From Candidatus Nanosyncoccus sp. (GTDB taxonomy: Bacteria > Patescibacteriota > Saccharimonadia > Saccharimonadales > Saccharimonadaceae): DNA of 64,000 bases. The stretch spans positions 2,192-66,191 of the forward strand of contig JAZQTT010000013.1 in NCBI GenBank assembly GCA_045630905.1, read 5' to 3'. Position 1 is the stretch's first letter, and each line of letters opens with the position of its first letter. The notes beneath the pieces were generated by a model. The model ran no database searches and was not told the DNA's origin. It worked only from the letters and a program-made list of their open reading frames with translations. The position numbers and the translations under genes are program-made. Shown here in pieces: positions 9,366 through 18,701 of the stretch.

Positions 9366-10675
9366 TAATCTTCTACAAGAGTAAATTCTTTACCAGCGAT
9401 AGAGATAATTGAATCTGGCTGAGCGCCTTTTGAGGTAAGTTCAGCTCTAATGCCAAGTTTTTTCATTATATCTCTTAGGCGGTTTACTGAGGCATAATTA
9501 TTAAGGTCAGTACGGCGAGCAAACTTTTCAATTTTTTCACCGGTAACCAAGAAGGCTCCATCTTCCTGCTCTTCCACTTTCCAGGTATCTTTAAGCTGAT
9601 TAGGATTCAGGGAAATAGTAGGAATTGAATCCTGATCGACACTCGGTTCAGTTAATTCTTTGCCACTTTCCTGGGCCTTAGAAATACTCGTTGAATAAAC
9701 TTGTTTTAACTCCCTTAAAAGCTCTGTTAAGCCTTGGTGAGCCTGAGAAGAAATTGCAAAAATCTTAGCATCAGGGTTTTTAGCGAGAATTGAAGATATT
9801 TGCATATTGATAATTTCTTGGTCTACTCCTTCACATTTAGTGAGAGCGATAACCTCCGGGCGGTCTCTTAAATCTGAATACTTATCTAATTCATTTCTAA
9901 TGGTTTGATATGCTTCGCCGGCATCGTTATTATAGATATCAATAAGATGAAGTAAAACCGCTGTACGGTCAACATGGCGCAAAAAATCATGACCAAGGCC
10001 TTTGCCCTCGGAAGCGCCCTCGATAAGGCCTGGAATATCAGCAATTAAGAGATCTTGACCATCAATTGTAGCAACGCCAAGATTAGGAGTAATAGTAGTA
10101 AATGGGTAATCGGCAATTTCTGGCTTAGCGTTAGAAATTACAGAGAGAAAAGTAGATTTACCAGCATTAGGCAAACCAACAAGTCCAACATCGGCCATAG
10201 TTTTTAGCTCCAACTCAGCTTCAAATTCTTCGCCTGGTTCACCTACCTCAGCGATACGAGGAGTTTGACGAGTGGAACTCTTAAAATGGGCGTTTCCAAA
10301 CCCGCCGTCACCACCTTTAGCGATGATTGCTTCTTCACCGTCATGGGTTAGGTCTGCAATTTGTGTCCTCTCCCCGTTTTCTTTCTTATATACACAAGTC
10401 CCAACTGGAACATCAACGATTAAATCTTTCCCAGAACGGCCAGCCGAACGCTGTCCGGAACCGTTTTTACCATTGCCAGCTTCTAGAATTGGGGTAAAAC
10501 GAAAGTCAATTAAAGTGTTAGTGTTACGATCAGCTTTAAAGATAATATCGCCGCCTTTACCACCGTCGCCACCATCTGGTCCACCTTTTGGAATGTAGAT
10601 TTCATGCCGAAAAGAGACGGCTCCATCACCGCCTTTACCGGCCTTCAAACTCACTTTTGCGACGTCTACAAACAT
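9362..10675 (-). CDS. obgE: GTPase ObgE/CgtA
   Basis: MFVDVAKVSLKAGKGGDGAVSFR, Gly-rich Obg fold, GLPNAGKST, DIPGLIEGA, C-terminal OCT domain. Confidence 0.97.
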   Translation of the reverse strand: MFVDVAKVSLKAGKGGDGAVSFRHEIYIPKGGPDGGDGGKGGDIIFKADRNTNTLIDFRFTPILEAGNGKNGSGQRSAGRSGKDLIVDVPVGTCVYKKENGERTQIADLTHDGEEAIIAKGGDGGFGNAHFKSSTRQTPRIAEVGEPGEEFEAELELKTMADVGLVGLPNAGKSTFLSVISNAKPEIADYPFTTITPNLGVATIDGQDLLIADIPGLIEGASEGKGLGHDFLRHVDRTAVLLHLIDIYNNDAGEAYQTIRNELDKYSDLRDRPEVIALTKCEGVDQEIINMQISSILAKNPDAKIFAISSQAHQGLTELLRELKQVYSTSISKAQESGKELTEPSVDQDSIPTISLNPNQLKDTWKVEEQEDGAFLVTGEKIEKFARRTDLNNYASVNRLRDIMKKLGIRAELTSKGAQPDSIISIAGKEFTLVEDY

Positions 10676-10792
10676 AACAATATTATATCATATTTTTTGA
10701 TTTTGTTAAGGTTTCATGGTATACTGTTTGGTACGAGAAAATCTCGCGTAGTATTAACAATCAGATTTCATATGCAAAAAGGAGGTGGCGAT

Positions 10793-12103
10793 ATGAATCG
10801 AAGTTTGAAACCTGAAACAGTATTAAAAATGATCGAGGAGCTTGAGCCTGGCGATGAGCTTCTCTTGAACGCCTGTATGGGGCAAAGTGAATTACCTTTA
10901 AAGGCGATTGAGCCGCTGGTGATGTACTCGTTTGAATGGGCGAAGCAAGTCGGAGGAAGTCAAAATTTCACCGAAGATGAGATGCAGAAGTGGCTTAATG
11001 CTGAGGAAAAATTAAAAACAGTGGCAGTGGCCGCTAGCTGCATCGGAAGAAAAGTTCCATTTAGGATAATTGACCAACTGTTGACTCAGGCTATTGAATT
11101 TAGAGATGATGATCTGAAAGATCTGGTCGTCGAGGCAGTAGTTGGACAAGATGTCCCAAATCACCTGATTAACGATTGGGCATTCTTTAGACCCGAGACG
11201 TATTTCAATGCAGCTATGGCTGCATGTATCGGGAGGAAGAATCCTAATTTGGTTGGGATTATCTATCGTGGACTCGATTACGACTCTAAAGTTGCGAACG
11301 AGTACGCAATCAAGGCCTGTGATGAGGCGCTTATTGATTTTAACCATATTCGTGGCTGGATCAATAGTGCTAACGGAATACTACGATTAGCAGCTATCAA
11401 CGCGTGCCGAGGCAGATATCCAATTCCAACTGGGATCGTCAAAGCAGCGCTCCGTTACACAGACTCAATCAAGGTTCCACAGGAGGCACCGTCAGTAAGG
11501 CTCGCTAGTGAGCTAAGTCCTGAAGAGTACGCTCAAATTTTAGTAGTCTTCAGAGACTATCTACCAAAGAGCGTACTTTATAAGGCGCTTTTTAGTGCGG
11601 AGCCGGAAATAATTCTGGGAGCTCTTGAGGCATGTCAGAAGACAACACTAAATTTTCGAATCCGGGGCAGGATTATCAACATTATCCTTGATAAAAATGT
11701 TGGTGATTTTAGCCCGGAAAAGAAACGGGAGATTCGCAAAACGGCAATCAAAACTGCCCACAAGGCGAATATTAGATTGCCATTAAAGAGGGATTTCATG
11801 CCTCCGGAGATCGTTTTCATGAAATGTGCGAACGACGTAATCGTGTCGGCGCATATTCATGGTTCCGCATTGATAAGAGGTAATCCGGGAAAGGGTCTAT
11901 GCTATACAGACGGCGCACTGATTATGCGCGTGGAAGGAAGCTTTTACGGTGAAAGAGTAGGAGTTTCTATGCTGGATAAAAAGACGCTCTACTATGTAGG
12001 GAAAAATGTGATAATCAAAAACTTCGATTATCTAATTCCAGATAGTGATAGCTTCCCGTTCTTCTGCACCAGAAAAGAAGCGGAGGAGTTCTCCGGTTTT
12101 TAA
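10793..12103 (+). CDS. Hypothetical protein: helical HEAT-like N-terminus plus degenerate DUF5758-like C-terminal domain
   Basis: GGAGG SD before ATG 10793; A/C/L-rich helical repeats; C-terminus VFMKC..VIVS....S.LD....Y.VG....NFD......FFCTRKEA resembles DUF5758 (recall). Confidence 0.5.
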   Translation: MNRSLKPETVLKMIEELEPGDELLLNACMGQSELPLKAIEPLVMYSFEWAKQVGGSQNFTEDEMQKWLNAEEKLKTVAVAASCIGRKVPFRIIDQLLTQAIEFRDDDLKDLVVEAVVGQDVPNHLINDWAFFRPETYFNAAMAACIGRKNPNLVGIIYRGLDYDSKVANEYAIKACDEALIDFNHIRGWINSANGILRLAAINACRGRYPIPTGIVKAALRYTDSIKVPQEAPSVRLASELSPEEYAQILVVFRDYLPKSVLYKALFSAEPEIILGALEACQKTTLNFRIRGRIINIILDKNVGDFSPEKKREIRKTAIKTAHKANIRLPLKRDFMPPEIVFMKCANDVIVSAHIHGSALIRGNPGKGLCYTDGALIMRVEGSFYGERVGVSMLDKKTLYYVGKNVIIKNFDYLIPDSDSFPFFCTRKEAEEFSGF

Positions 12104-12177
12104 ACCTTATCGCGTATGGAATCTGTTCTTATTGGGTCCATCAAAAAATAGGTGGGCCCAATTTTCATTTTTAGGTA

Positions 12178-12206
12178 TTGACATTTTTCCGTTTATGCTT
12201 TATTAT
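12178..12206 (+). promoter_or_regulatory. Sigma70-type promoter of a putative sRNA
   Basis: TTGACA (12178-83), 17 bp, TATTAT (12201-06). Confidence 0.7.
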
Positions 12207-12212
12207 AGGTAT

Positions 12213-12367
12213 AAGCTGGTACGCTTCACAGGGGTTCCACTGACTATTAGTGGAGTGTGGAGACTTACATTAAAAAACAAACAGCGGATTAAAACAAACC
12301 AATGTGCCCCCTTGGGTGGGTGCGCATCAGCGAAAAAGGGTAGCCTTGTAGGGAGGCTACCTTTTTT
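12213..12367 (+). ncRNA. Putative stand-alone structured small RNA (~155 nt), class unknown
   Basis: Promoter upstream; closing stem 12215-12234 with 12307-12331; two inner hairpins; A/C-rich loop; terminator GGTAGCCT/AGGCTACC plus T6 (12339-12367). Confidence 0.6.
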
Positions 12368-12388
12368 GGCTTTAATTATTCATAAACT

Positions 12389-12847
12389 CTATTCTTCTTC
12401 CCCCAAGGCTTCTTCCCCCTGATTATCATCAGGAAATTCATCAAAAGAGTAACTATATTTGTCTTTTTCTTTCACCAAGTTGAATATTCCGGAACCATCT
12501 TCTTTTTCAGCATATCCTTTTTTATACATTTCCTCTTTTTCATGAAGATTAGGGACCGGACCCATTGCTTTTATGCCATCTTCAGCATCCCCAGACCCAC
12601 GAGTCCAAAGAGCAGCAAGAACGGTAAGACAAAAACCACCAATAAATGCTGCGGTTTTTATCTTAGCTTTTCTTCGCTTTTCTTTAACTTCTAATTCTGC
12701 AGCATTAGCATTGGCGCCAGCCCCTCTAGTTATTTTGCTGCTTATTTCCTCGTCTTCAAATAATTTTTGGACCGCTTCAGGCGTTTCGCGATCATCTTCC
12801 CCATGCATTCCTACGTAAGCCGGGTCTTTAAATTCATTATTATCCAT
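12389..12847 (-). CDS. Hypothetical single-pass membrane protein
   Basis: 152 aa, AAGGAGG SD, one hydrophobic segment (TAAFIGGFCLTVLAALW), acidic termini. Confidence 0.7.
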   Translation of the reverse strand: MDNNEFKDPAYVGMHGEDDRETPEAVQKLFEDEEISSKITRGAGANANAAELEVKEKRRKAKIKTAAFIGGFCLTVLAALWTRGSGDAEDGIKAMGPVPNLHEKEEMYKKGYAEKEDGSGIFNLVKEKDKYSYSFDEFPDDNQGEEALGEEE

Positions 12848-13040
12848 CTAATCCCTCCTTCTTAGCAACTTCACGTGCTACATCTTCAGCATTTATGCCA
12901 TATTCGGCTAAGATTGTTGATATTTTTTCATCATCTCTTGTATCTTCATCCGACAAATTAGCAAGCTTTTCTATTGCTTCATATGGTAAGCGGTTTAAGA
13001 CTTCTTCTTGAACCTCATCAATGAATGCTTCTTGATCCAT
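12840..13040 (-). CDS. Small acidic hypothetical protein
   Basis: GAGGAGG SD before ATG 13040 (MDQEAFIDEVQEEV...); overlaps the start of the next gene. Confidence 0.65.
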   Translation of the reverse strand: MDQEAFIDEVQEEVLNRLPYEAIEKLANLSDEDTRDDEKISTILAEYGINAEDVAREVAKKEGLDG

Positions 13041-13121
13041 ATACCTCCTCTTTTCTACTACCATTGTACTAATGGCAAGGGACTTTTGTCAAGGATATGA
13101 GAAGGTGGTATAATATAGGGA

Positions 13122-18616: not shown

Positions 18617-18701
18617 GCCCGAGTGGTGAAATTGGTATACACGTATGCCTTAGGAGCATATGCCGCAAGGCGTGCTGGTTCAAGTCCAGTCTCGGGCACC
18701 A
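18617..18701 (+). tRNA. tRNA-Leu (anticodon UAG)
   Basis: GCCCGAG/CTCGGGC acceptor stem, D-loop GG, TATGC-CTTAGGA-GCATA anticodon arm, long variable arm, GGTTCAAGTCC T-arm, encoded CCA. Confidence 0.97.

What the first reader, a model, noticed from the sequence alone, without database searches (positions are those of the whole stretch)
12178..12367. Independent ~155-nt sRNA gene with a long closing stem and an A/C-rich loop
Seen: TTGACA-17-TATTAT promoter. GCTGGTACGC (12215-24) pairs with GCGCATCAGC (12322-31), continued by TTCAC-AGGGG / CCCCTT-GTGGG through G.U pairs. Inner hairpins TCCACT-gactatt-AGTGGA and GTGTG-gagact-TACAT are followed by a purine/C-rich strand with a repeated AAAACAAAC (12274-82, 12291-99). 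A strong terminator follows. It is shorter than typical 6S RNA and lacks the SRP domain IV motif. Inference: an unannotated sRNA, a possible minimal 6S-like RNAP decoy or a protein sponge.
Basis: partly seen in the sequence, partly recalled or inferred. Interest (0 to 1): 0.65.

Follow-up and report, generated by a model that had tools for sequence, protein, structure and literature searches.

The report
Conserved unknown small RNA of Saccharibacteria
The flagged stretch is a real, self-contained gene for a roughly 155-base folded RNA that ultra-small Saccharibacteria (TM7) keep almost unchanged as one copy per genome; it matches no described RNA family, does not have the shape of a 6S RNA, and its partner and function are unknown.

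Summary
Comparative data show a real RNA gene.

- **Distribution:** the 119-nt core (12213-12331) is found once per locus in 310 of 318 Saccharibacteria genome and metagenome loci. In a sample picked by the neighbouring obg gene alone, 74 of 79 loci hold it.
- **Transcription signals:** a TTGACx-17-TAnnnT promoter sits 6 nt before the RNA in 193 of 198 loci. An intrinsic terminator follows in 187 of 198.
- **Conservation:** the core is 87% identical between species, while the promoter and terminator flanks are 54-62%.
- **Fold:** covariation supports a rod (P1a-P1b-P1c stacked on P2). The rod carries a 46-58-nt, G-poor, A/C-rich single strand with invariant GUGUGGAGA and AUUAAAACAAA blocks. 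A second, mutually exclusive fold is predicted at nearly equal energy.
- **Known families:** there is no Rfam, tRNA or tmRNA match, and no paper was found.
- **6S reading:** the architecture does not fit 6S RNA. One side of the "bubble" has 0-1 nt, and P2 is only 6-10 bp.

My best guess is a housekeeping-type RNA that binds a protein or the ribosome (about 0.4). An antisense regulator is the main rival (about 0.3). Transcription could not be shown with the runs available. Earlier agents of this scan met the same family.

The parts
12178..12206 (+). Sigma-70-type promoter: TTGACA, 17-bp spacer, TATTAT
   Evidence: Matches 11 of 12 consensus positions. An equivalent promoter with a 17-18-bp spacer (179 of 193 at 17 bp) was found in 193 of 198 distinct homologous loci, ending 6 nt before AAGCUG in 188 of them.
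12213..12331 (+). 119-nt conserved RNA core; predicted 5' end at AAGCUG
   Evidence: Model R1 matches 12213-12331 at 125.8 bits. nhmmer finds one hit per source in 310 of 318 sources and never two. Pairwise identity is 87%.
12215..12224 (+). P1a 5' strand (GCUGGUACGC); pairs with 12322-12331
   Evidence: MFE fold. Covariation: U-A changes to A-U in 7 of 100 sequences at the pair 12220/12326, and G.U/A-U/G-C alternate at the pair 12219/12327.
12225..12229 (+). P1b 5' strand (UUCAC); pairs with GUGGG 12316-12320. In the alternative fold, CUUCACA (12224-12230) pairs with UGUGGAG (12256-12262).
   Evidence: Two U.G pairs are kept in 100 and 92 of 100 sequences. The alternative 7-bp helix costs only 1.7 kcal/mol above the MFE.
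12231..12235 (+). P1c 5' strand (GGGG plus U); pairs with G + CCCC 12306-12310
   Evidence: The outer pair shows G-C 85, A-U 8, G.U 5.
12236..12254 (+). P2 hairpin (UCCACUGA-cua-UUAGUGGA)
   Evidence: 5 of 8 pairs carry changes on both sides. Loop length and sequence vary freely.
12255..12263 (+). Invariant block 1 (GUGUGGAGA), containing a GGAG
   Evidence: GUGUGGAG is present in all 205 distinct homologues and the ninth base is A in 204. Invariant columns are listed. Predicted unpaired probability is 0.39, so it is partly captured by the alternative fold.
12264..12285 (+). Variable A-rich, G-poor linker
   Evidence: Length and sequence vary. The strand between the two blocks is 58% A, 19% C and 8% G.
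12286..12299 (+). Invariant block 2 (GG-AUUAAAACAAA-C), always single-stranded
   Evidence: The 21-mer starting here is exact in more than 118 species genomes. AUUAAAACAAA is kept in 204 of 205 distinct homologues; the exception reads AUCAAAACAAA. Unpaired probability is 0.80.
12303..12310 (+). UGUG + CCCC. CCCC is the 3' strand of P1c. UGUGCCC can instead pair with GGG(C/U)GCG 12318-12324 in the alternative fold.
   Evidence: Invariant columns. This hairpin appears in the MFE fold of several homologues.
12314..12321 (+). GGGUGGG (3' strand of P1b plus two unpaired invariant G) and the bulged base (U here, C elsewhere)
   Evidence: The bulge is C in 204 of 205 homologues and U only in this window.
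12322..12331 (+). P1a 3' strand (GCGCAUCAGC)
12333..12367 (+). Intrinsic terminator (15-bp stem, 5-nt loop, U6). It carries an A-tract 5' of the stem, so it could also end the convergent gene.
   Evidence: A terminator-like hairpin with U tract follows in 187 of 198 loci, although the sequence is only 54% conserved.

Best explanation
SHOWN: 12178-12367 (+) is a self-contained gene, with a near-consensus promoter, a 119-nt core and an intrinsic terminator, for an RNA of about 155 nt. The RNA belongs to an undescribed family that is single-copy and almost invariant across gut, rumen and oral Saccharibacteria. Its usual neighbourhood is LysM/CHAP - obg - RNA - (variable cargo) - trmD - recG. Its 5' and 3' ends zip into a three-part stem (P1a, a bulged C, P1b with two fixed U.G pairs, an internal loop, then P1c). 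This stem abuts hairpin P2, giving a rod of about 29 bp. One strand of the rod carries a 46-58-nt, G-poor, A/C-rich single strand with two invariant blocks, GUGUGGAGA and AUUAAAACAAA.

INFERRED (about 0.4): it is a housekeeping-type RNA that works in trans as part of a ribonucleoprotein. The rod, with its fixed bulge, wobble pairs and unpaired GG, would be the protein-recognition scaffold. The always-open A/C-rich strand would be the binding surface for a protein or the ribosome. The GGAG-containing block would be exposed or hidden by switching between two nearly isoenergetic folds. Fold A has P1b and P1c. Fold B has CUUCACA:UGUGGAG plus UGUGCCC:GGGCGCG.

It is not a 6S-type RNA polymerase decoy. 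Confidence that it is a real, conserved, undescribed sRNA gene is about 0.9. The 0.4 refers only to the ribonucleoprotein mechanism.
For: Gene status:
- Promoter matches 11 of 12 positions and a terminator follows. Both are kept at fixed distances in 193 and 187 of 198 loci, although their sequences drift (62% and 54% identity against 87% for the core).
- The fold has z = -4.6.
- Exactly one copy is found in 310 of 318 sources and never two.
- 74 of 79 loci chosen by obg alone hold it.
- It is absent from viral contigs.
- Core lengths fall evenly over the three residues mod 3, and no ORF is conserved.

Structure:
- 93.5% of cells pair. 7 pairs and 35 cells carry changes on both sides. 0 of 500 shuffles reach these values, and slid controls pair in only 36-56% of cells.
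- Fixed U.G pairs make the fold strand-specific.

Housekeeping-class constraint:
- The core stays about 85% identical where Obg is only 56-60% identical at the protein level.
- Helices, the bulged C (204 of 205) and the unpaired GG are invariant, not only a seed.
- The segment next to block 2 tolerates C-to-A changes that would break a duplex.

Two folds:
- E(B) - E(A) = +1.1 +/- 2.0 kcal/mol over 205 homologues. Fold A is the MFE in 65% and fold B in 24%.

Other:
- AUUAAAACAAA has an unpaired probability of 0.80.
- No neighbouring gene family has a complementary start region.
Against: - No partner was identified. No transcript was shown: the runs found hold only assembled contigs, and these run on into the promoter or downstream DNA, so they could be DNA.
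- The invariance of the stems could come from the double pairing constraint of a bistable RNA alone, without any protein.
- The bistability signal is modest. Shuffling the single strand raises the energy gap only from 0.8 to 2.4 kcal/mol.
- An accessible conserved strand followed by a U-tailed terminator is also the classic anatomy of an antisense sRNA.
Confidence: 0.4

Rival explanations
1. Antisense (base-pairing) regulatory sRNA. The open A/C-rich strand, especially (G)GAUUAAAACAAA and/or GUGUGGAGA, would be a seed that pairs with G/U-rich or CUCC-containing sites in mRNAs elsewhere in the genome. The rod and terminator would only stabilise the RNA.
For: - The invariant block is accessible, with unpaired probability 0.80.
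- The strand is G-poor and unstructured.
- The terminator has a U tail.
- Runs of A-R-N triplets and AANAANAA motifs are mildly enriched over shuffles: mean run length 3.9 against 3.0, and at least one AANAANAA motif in 86% against 53%. This would suit an Hfq-like helper.
Against: - The whole RNA, not only a seed, is nearly invariant.
- No neighbouring gene family shows better-than-background pairing at its start site.
- The only recurrent 10-nt complement lies inside obg codons of some genera and is absent from this window.
- C-to-A changes occur directly beside the putative seed.
Confidence: 0.3
2. Ligand- or signal-sensing bistable RNA (a riboswitch-like sRNA), or a small ribozyme. The invariant junction nucleotides would form a compact tertiary fold, for example with the A-rich strand docked in the G-C-rich P1 minor groove. 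Function would lie in switching between folds A and B.
For: - Two mutually exclusive, fully specified folds lie within about 1 kcal/mol of each other across 205 homologues.
- Each invariant strand has two partners: CUUCAC with GUGGG or GUGGAG, and GGGCGCG with the 5' CGC or with UGUGCCC. This would explain why compensatory change is rare.
- The only variant at the "bulge" (C to U, in this window) keeps the fold-B pair with G.
Against: - No downstream gene is controlled. The orientation of neighbours varies, and in at least the loci read trmD has its own TGnTATAAT promoter right after the terminator.
- No riboswitch or ribozyme family matches.
- Both partner strands are invariant, so covariation cannot tell the folds apart.
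- The shuffle control is only moderately worse.
Confidence: 0.12
3. Minimal 6S-like RNA that binds RNA polymerase holoenzyme as an open-promoter mimic.
For: - The ends form a long closing stem, and the RNA is conserved and has a strong promoter.
- No 6S match was seen in the window or in the 10 homologous loci scanned.
- From my own recollection, which I did not check here, NCBI's annotation of the TM7x genome lists no 6S RNA. PMC13754049 gives only the gene counts (754 genes, 701 protein-coding, 3 rRNA, 44 tRNA).
Against: - No match to RF00013 at E <= 10.
- The 5' side of the "bubble" has 0-1 nt, against 46-58 nt on the 3' side.
- The apical helix is 6-10 bp, where a 6S RNA has a terminal stem of 15 bp or more.
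- The core is only 110-140 nt.
Confidence: 0.05
4. Not an RNA: a conserved DNA site (for example protein-binding boxes resembling TCCAC/GTGGA) or a tiny protein-coding gene.
For: - TCCAC and GTGGA-type words recur four to five times.
- Expression has not been demonstrated.
Against: - Fixed U.G pairs would be C x A mismatches on the other strand.
- Promoter and terminator bracket the element at fixed distances in nearly all loci.
- Helices show compensatory changes.
- Indels are not in multiples of three, and the longest closed ORFs are 7-16 codons and are not conserved.
Confidence: 0.03

Closest known systems
6S RNA (SsrS, Rfam RF00013)
   Same: Stand-alone and strongly promoted. The 5' and 3' ends form a long interrupted closing stem. 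Conserved as a single copy across a lineage.
   Different: No model match. The unpaired region is one-sided (0-1 nt against about 50 nt). The apical helix is only 6-10 bp. The core is 119 nt. Sequence conservation is far higher than is usual for 6S RNA.
Lineage-wide orphan sRNAs with an invariant single-stranded block, such as cyanobacterial Yfr1 (comparison from my own knowledge of that family)
   Same: An invariant unpaired sequence flanked by helices, a private promoter and terminator, restriction to one phylum or class, and function not obvious from context.
   Different: This RNA is about twice as long, has a closing stem that joins its two ends, has two invariant blocks, and its helices are invariant too.
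Protein-sequestering sRNAs: CsrB/RsmZ (GGA motifs) and CrcZ (A-rich AANAANAA motifs for Hfq/Crc)
   Same: An A/C-rich, G-poor open strand with AANAANAA-like words in 86% of homologues, and three fixed GGA motifs.
   Different: There are only 1-3 such motifs rather than 5-20, they do not sit in hairpin loops, and enrichment over shuffles is modest. Whether CsrA, Hfq or Crc exist in these genomes was not testable here.
Bistable regulatory RNAs (riboswitch expression platforms; 5' UTR switches)
   Same: Each conserved strand has two alternative partners, and the two folds are nearly equal in predicted energy.
   Different: There is no cis-controlled gene and no recognised aptamer. The terminator lies outside the switching region and is present in both folds.

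Membership tests
6S RNA | Match to the Rfam covariance model RF00013 (or related 6S models) | tested here: not met
   No hit at gathering score in the window, at E <= 10 in 12050-12450, or at E <= 1 in 10 homologous loci.
6S RNA | Rod with a large central bubble unpaired on BOTH strands, flanked by a closing stem and a long terminal stem | tested here: not met
   In the covariation-supported structure, P1c abuts P2 with 0-1 nt on the 5' strand and 46-58 nt on the 3' strand. P2 is 6-10 bp.
6S RNA | Binds sigma-70 holoenzyme and templates short product RNAs | not testable with these tools
   Needs RNA polymerase pull-down and small-RNA sequencing. The available runs were assembled contigs only.
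SRP RNA (4.5S/ffs) | Domain IV: GNAR tetraloop helix with the conserved symmetric and asymmetric loops; match to RF00169 or RF01854 | tested here: not met
   No Rfam hit. The apical loop of P2 varies in length and sequence.
tRNA / tmRNA | Cloverleaf or tRNA-like domain detected by ARAGORN | tested here: not met
   0 genes in 12000-12500.
CsrB/RsmZ-type CsrA sponge | Many GGA motifs, mostly in hairpin loops | tested here: not met
   188 of 205 homologues have 3 GGA per core. One lies in the P2 stem and two in the open strand; none is in a hairpin loop.
Trans-acting antisense sRNA | Accessible conserved seed plus intrinsic terminator | tested here: met
   AUUAAAACAAA has unpaired probability 0.80. 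A terminator follows in 187 of 198 loci.
Trans-acting antisense sRNA | Conserved complementary target sites in mRNAs | tested here: inconclusive
   Only neighbouring genes could be tested (1331 start regions); none stands out.
Riboswitch / cis leader | Sits upstream of, and in the same orientation as, the gene it controls, with the expression platform overlapping the aptamer | tested here: not met
   Here the downstream gene is convergent. In relatives the neighbours vary in identity and orientation, and trmD has its own promoter after the terminator.

The most novel reading that the evidence does not exclude
This may be a sixth "housekeeping" RNA, specific to Saccharibacteria: the RNA subunit of an essential, lineage-specific ribonucleoprotein. 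It could be a bistable translation-control RNA that shows or hides a GGAG/A-rich pseudo-initiation site to ribosomes or to a ribosome-associated factor. That would help remodel the proteome between the host-attached and swarmer states of these epibionts.
Probability: 0.15. Interest if true: 0.85.

Novelty: new member of a known kind. Interest (0 to 1): 0.6.

Why it matters
A 2024 perspective on Patescibacteria biology that I searched by keyword mentions no small or regulatory RNA and calls the control of cell differentiation in these bacteria completely unknown (PMC11665869), and my paper searches found no described small RNA in Saccharibacteria. This RNA is kept as tightly as ribosomal components in genomes of only about 0.7-1 Mb, so it probably does something central. 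Natural transformation and Tn-seq already work in Southlakia epibionticum and Nanosynbacter lyticus (PMC10633639). Deletion, point mutation and pull-down experiments are therefore feasible now.

Tried and rejected
- **Known families:** Rfam at the gathering threshold and at permissive thresholds, on the window and on 10 homologous loci, gave nothing. ARAGORN gave nothing.
- **Relatives of the upstream 499-aa ORF:** none found. That ORF and the two downstream ORFs have no Pfam, NCBIfam or PADLOC match.
- **P1 variants:** a search for versions with an altered P1 strand (GGGVGG) found 0 hits.
- **Phage copies:** 0 hits in viral contigs.
- **Expression evidence:** four run searches and four read-laying runs returned only assembled contigs that include promoter or downstream DNA. 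I could therefore show neither a transcript nor its ends.
- **Targets among neighbouring genes:** none. A 10-nt complement inside obg is not conserved in this window.
- **Helix P3 (CAUU:AAUG):** present in only about 60% of homologues, so it is optional.
- **Resemblance to 5S rRNA segments, DnaA boxes, T-loops and K-turns:** considered by eye and dropped. No model matched, or the defining sequence was missing.
- **Literature:** nine searches found no description of this RNA.

Full report
**Observation.**
- The promoter is TTGACA, a 17-bp spacer and TATTAT, matching 11 of 12 consensus positions.
- The closing stem GCUGGUACGC/GCGCAUCAGC is continued by UUCAC/GUGGG, which uses two U.G pairs, and then by GGGG/CCCC.
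- The hairpin UCCACUGA-cua-UUAGUGGA is present.
- The 9-mer AAAACAAAC stands at 12274-12282 and again at 12291-12299.
- The terminator at 12333-12367 has a 15-bp stem followed by U6.

The plus strand folds to -58.9 kcal/mol, with z = -4.6 and 0 of 200 shuffles as good. The minus strand folds to -47.7 kcal/mol. The region lies between the end of a 499-aa ORF (10604-12103, +) and a convergent 152-aa ORF (12389-12847, -). Neither has any family match.

**Not a known family.** Rfam 15 finds only a tRNA at 18617-18698 in the whole window. At E <= 10 nothing touches the core; the few hits are chance matches on the terminator. Ten homologous loci give nothing at E <= 1. ARAGORN finds no tRNA or tmRNA. 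Nine literature searches found no description of this RNA.

**Organism and relatives.** Earlier notes of this scan call the genome a gut Saccharibacterium. I checked this through the record titles of homologous loci.
- When public gut runs were laid on the region, only 12193-12310 was shared with other organisms' contigs, and 12279-12310 was identical in many.
Of the 80 rows shown, almost all are labelled Saccharibacteria, Nanosyncoccus, Nanosyncoccaceae or Nanosynbacter.
- A relaxed three-block pattern hit 120 metagenome contigs, of which 117 were real. It hit none in viral contigs.
- In a sample chosen only by the obg protein, 74 of 79 loci hold exactly one copy within 5 kb. Most of the five misses are short or truncated contigs.
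- Over all 318 sources, nhmmer finds one copy in 310 and never two. Covariance model R1 finds 100 hits in 100 sources and nothing else at E <= 1 in 829 kb.
- The usual neighbourhood is LysM/CHAP - obg - RNA - variable cargo - trmD - recG. The orientation relative to the neighbours varies.

**An independent transcription unit.**
- Of 198 distinct loci, 193 have a TTGACx-17/18-TAnnnT promoter. In 188 of these the -10 box ends exactly 6 nt before AAGCUG.
- 187 of 198 have a terminator-like hairpin with a U tract directly after the closing stem.
- These flanks are only 62% and 54% identical between species, while the core is 87% identical. The signals are therefore kept by function rather than by recent common descent.
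- Where Obg proteins are only 56-60% identical, the RNA core is still about 85% identical.
- Core lengths spread evenly over the three residues mod 3, and no ORF is conserved.

**Structure.** On the model-based alignment of 100 distinct sequences, 93.5% of cells form standard pairs. Seven pairs and 35 cells carry changes on both sides. None of 500 shuffles reaches any of the five measures, and structures slid by 1-3 columns pair in only 36-56% of cells.
- The helices, in core numbering where position 1 is window 12213, are P1a (3-12/110-119), a bulged base at 109, P1b (13-17/104-108), an internal loop, P1c (19-23/94-98) and P2 (24-31/35-42).
- P1c and P2 abut on the 5' strand, so the helices can stack into a rod of about 29 bp.
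- The 3' strand between P2 and P1c is a 46-58-nt single strand. It begins with the invariant GUGUGGAGA. A variable A-rich linker follows, then the invariant AUUAAAACAAA, then a short variable piece, and it ends in UGUG.
- Between the blocks the strand is 58% A, 19% C and 8% G.
- AUUAAAACAAA is predicted to be unpaired with probability 0.80.
- Fixed U.G pairs (100, 92 and 100 of 100 sequences) make the fold specific to the plus strand.

**A second fold.** The 5' strand CUUCACA can pair with UGUGGAG of block 1 (7 bp) instead of with GUGGG. UGUGCCC can pair with GGG(C/U)GCG instead of forming P1c and the inner part of P1a.
- In this window the alternative fold is only 1.7 kcal/mol above the optimum.
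- In several homologues it is the predicted optimum.
- Over 205 distinct homologues, E(B) - E(A) = +1.1 +/- 2.0 kcal/mol. 66% lie within 2 kcal/mol. Fold A is the optimum in 65% and fold B in 24%.
- The bulged base is C in 204 of 205. The single exception, U in this window, keeps the fold-B pair with G.
- The signal is suggestive only. Shuffling the single strand widens the gap merely from 0.8 to 2.4 kcal/mol. Because both partner strands are invariant, covariation cannot separate the folds.

**What it is not.**
- 6S RNA needs a bubble open on both strands and two long arms. Here one side has 0-1 nt and the apical helix is 6-10 bp, and no 6S model matches.
- It is not SRP RNA. There is no domain IV, and the apical loop is variable.
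- It is not a CsrB-type sponge. The core holds three GGA motifs, none in a hairpin loop.
- It is not a riboswitch or leader. The downstream gene here is convergent, and in relatives trmD has its own promoter after the terminator.
- It is not mobile. It is single-copy, and it is absent from viral contigs.

**Mechanism (inferred).** The conservation level matches that of RNAs that work inside conserved machines. The invariance extends to helices, a bulge, wobble pairs and unpaired G's, so I favour a ribonucleoprotein role (about 0.4). In this reading the rod is the scaffold and the A/C-rich strand is the binding surface. The GGAG block would be gated by the A/B switch.

An antisense role through the same strand is the main rival (about 0.3).
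- Points for it: the anatomy fits, and A-R-N and AANAANAA words are mildly enriched.
- Points against it: no target was found among 1331 neighbouring start regions, and C-to-A changes occur beside the putative seed.

A ligand-sensing or purely conformational RNA gets about 0.12, a 6S-like role about 0.05, and a non-RNA element about 0.03.

**Limits.**
I could not run genome-wide target prediction, look for candidate partner proteins, check for canonical 6S/SRP/RNase P genes, or measure distribution across the class.
- Transcription is not shown. All the runs found were assembled contigs that also cover promoter or downstream DNA.
- All homologues were collected with patterns built from the conserved blocks, or from close obg relatives. 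More divergent members may exist.

**Relation to earlier work in this scan.** Other agents met the same family in other genomes and reached the same verdict of a conserved unknown RNA. One of them proposed a two-fold toggle and pointed to the GGGUGGGC strand. I treated these notes as leads and re-derived each point above independently.

Noticed in passing
window 10604-12103 (+): A 499-aa ORF with no Pfam, NCBIfam or PADLOC match and its own terminator-like hairpin at 12131-12162. Among the loci examined, only L020 has a relative at this position. It looks like accessory cargo inserted between obg and the RNA gene.
   Followed up: partly
window 12389-13064 (-): Two small ORFs (74 aa and 152 aa) overlap by 8 nt (ATGGATAA) and are convergent with the RNA. 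They have no family match and sit between the RNA and trmD. Relatives carry different cargo in this gap, so it appears to be an insertion hotspot.
   Followed up: partly
L046 (JAIRRY010000009.1) and L244 (CAVDHS010000024.1): Contigs labelled 'Candidatus Nomurabacteria' and 'Bulleidia sp.' carry this Saccharibacteria RNA; L244 also carries an obg 82% identical to this window's. They are probably mis-binned or mislabelled. L046 has the most divergent P2 hairpin, with compensatory changes.
   Followed up: no
L239-L317, obg matches: The obg match length varies from about 1275 to 1590 nt among close relatives.
   Followed up: no
L003, L023, L043 and others, inside obg: A 10-nt exact complement (GUUUUAAUCC) to block 2 of the RNA lies in the obg codons for D-F-R-F-N-P in Nanosynbacter-type loci. 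It is absent from this window's obg, so it is probably chance.
   Followed up: partly
window 12333-12367: The terminator has an A-tract 5' of the stem and a T-tract 3' of it. It could therefore act in both directions and also end the convergent 152-aa gene.
   Followed up: no
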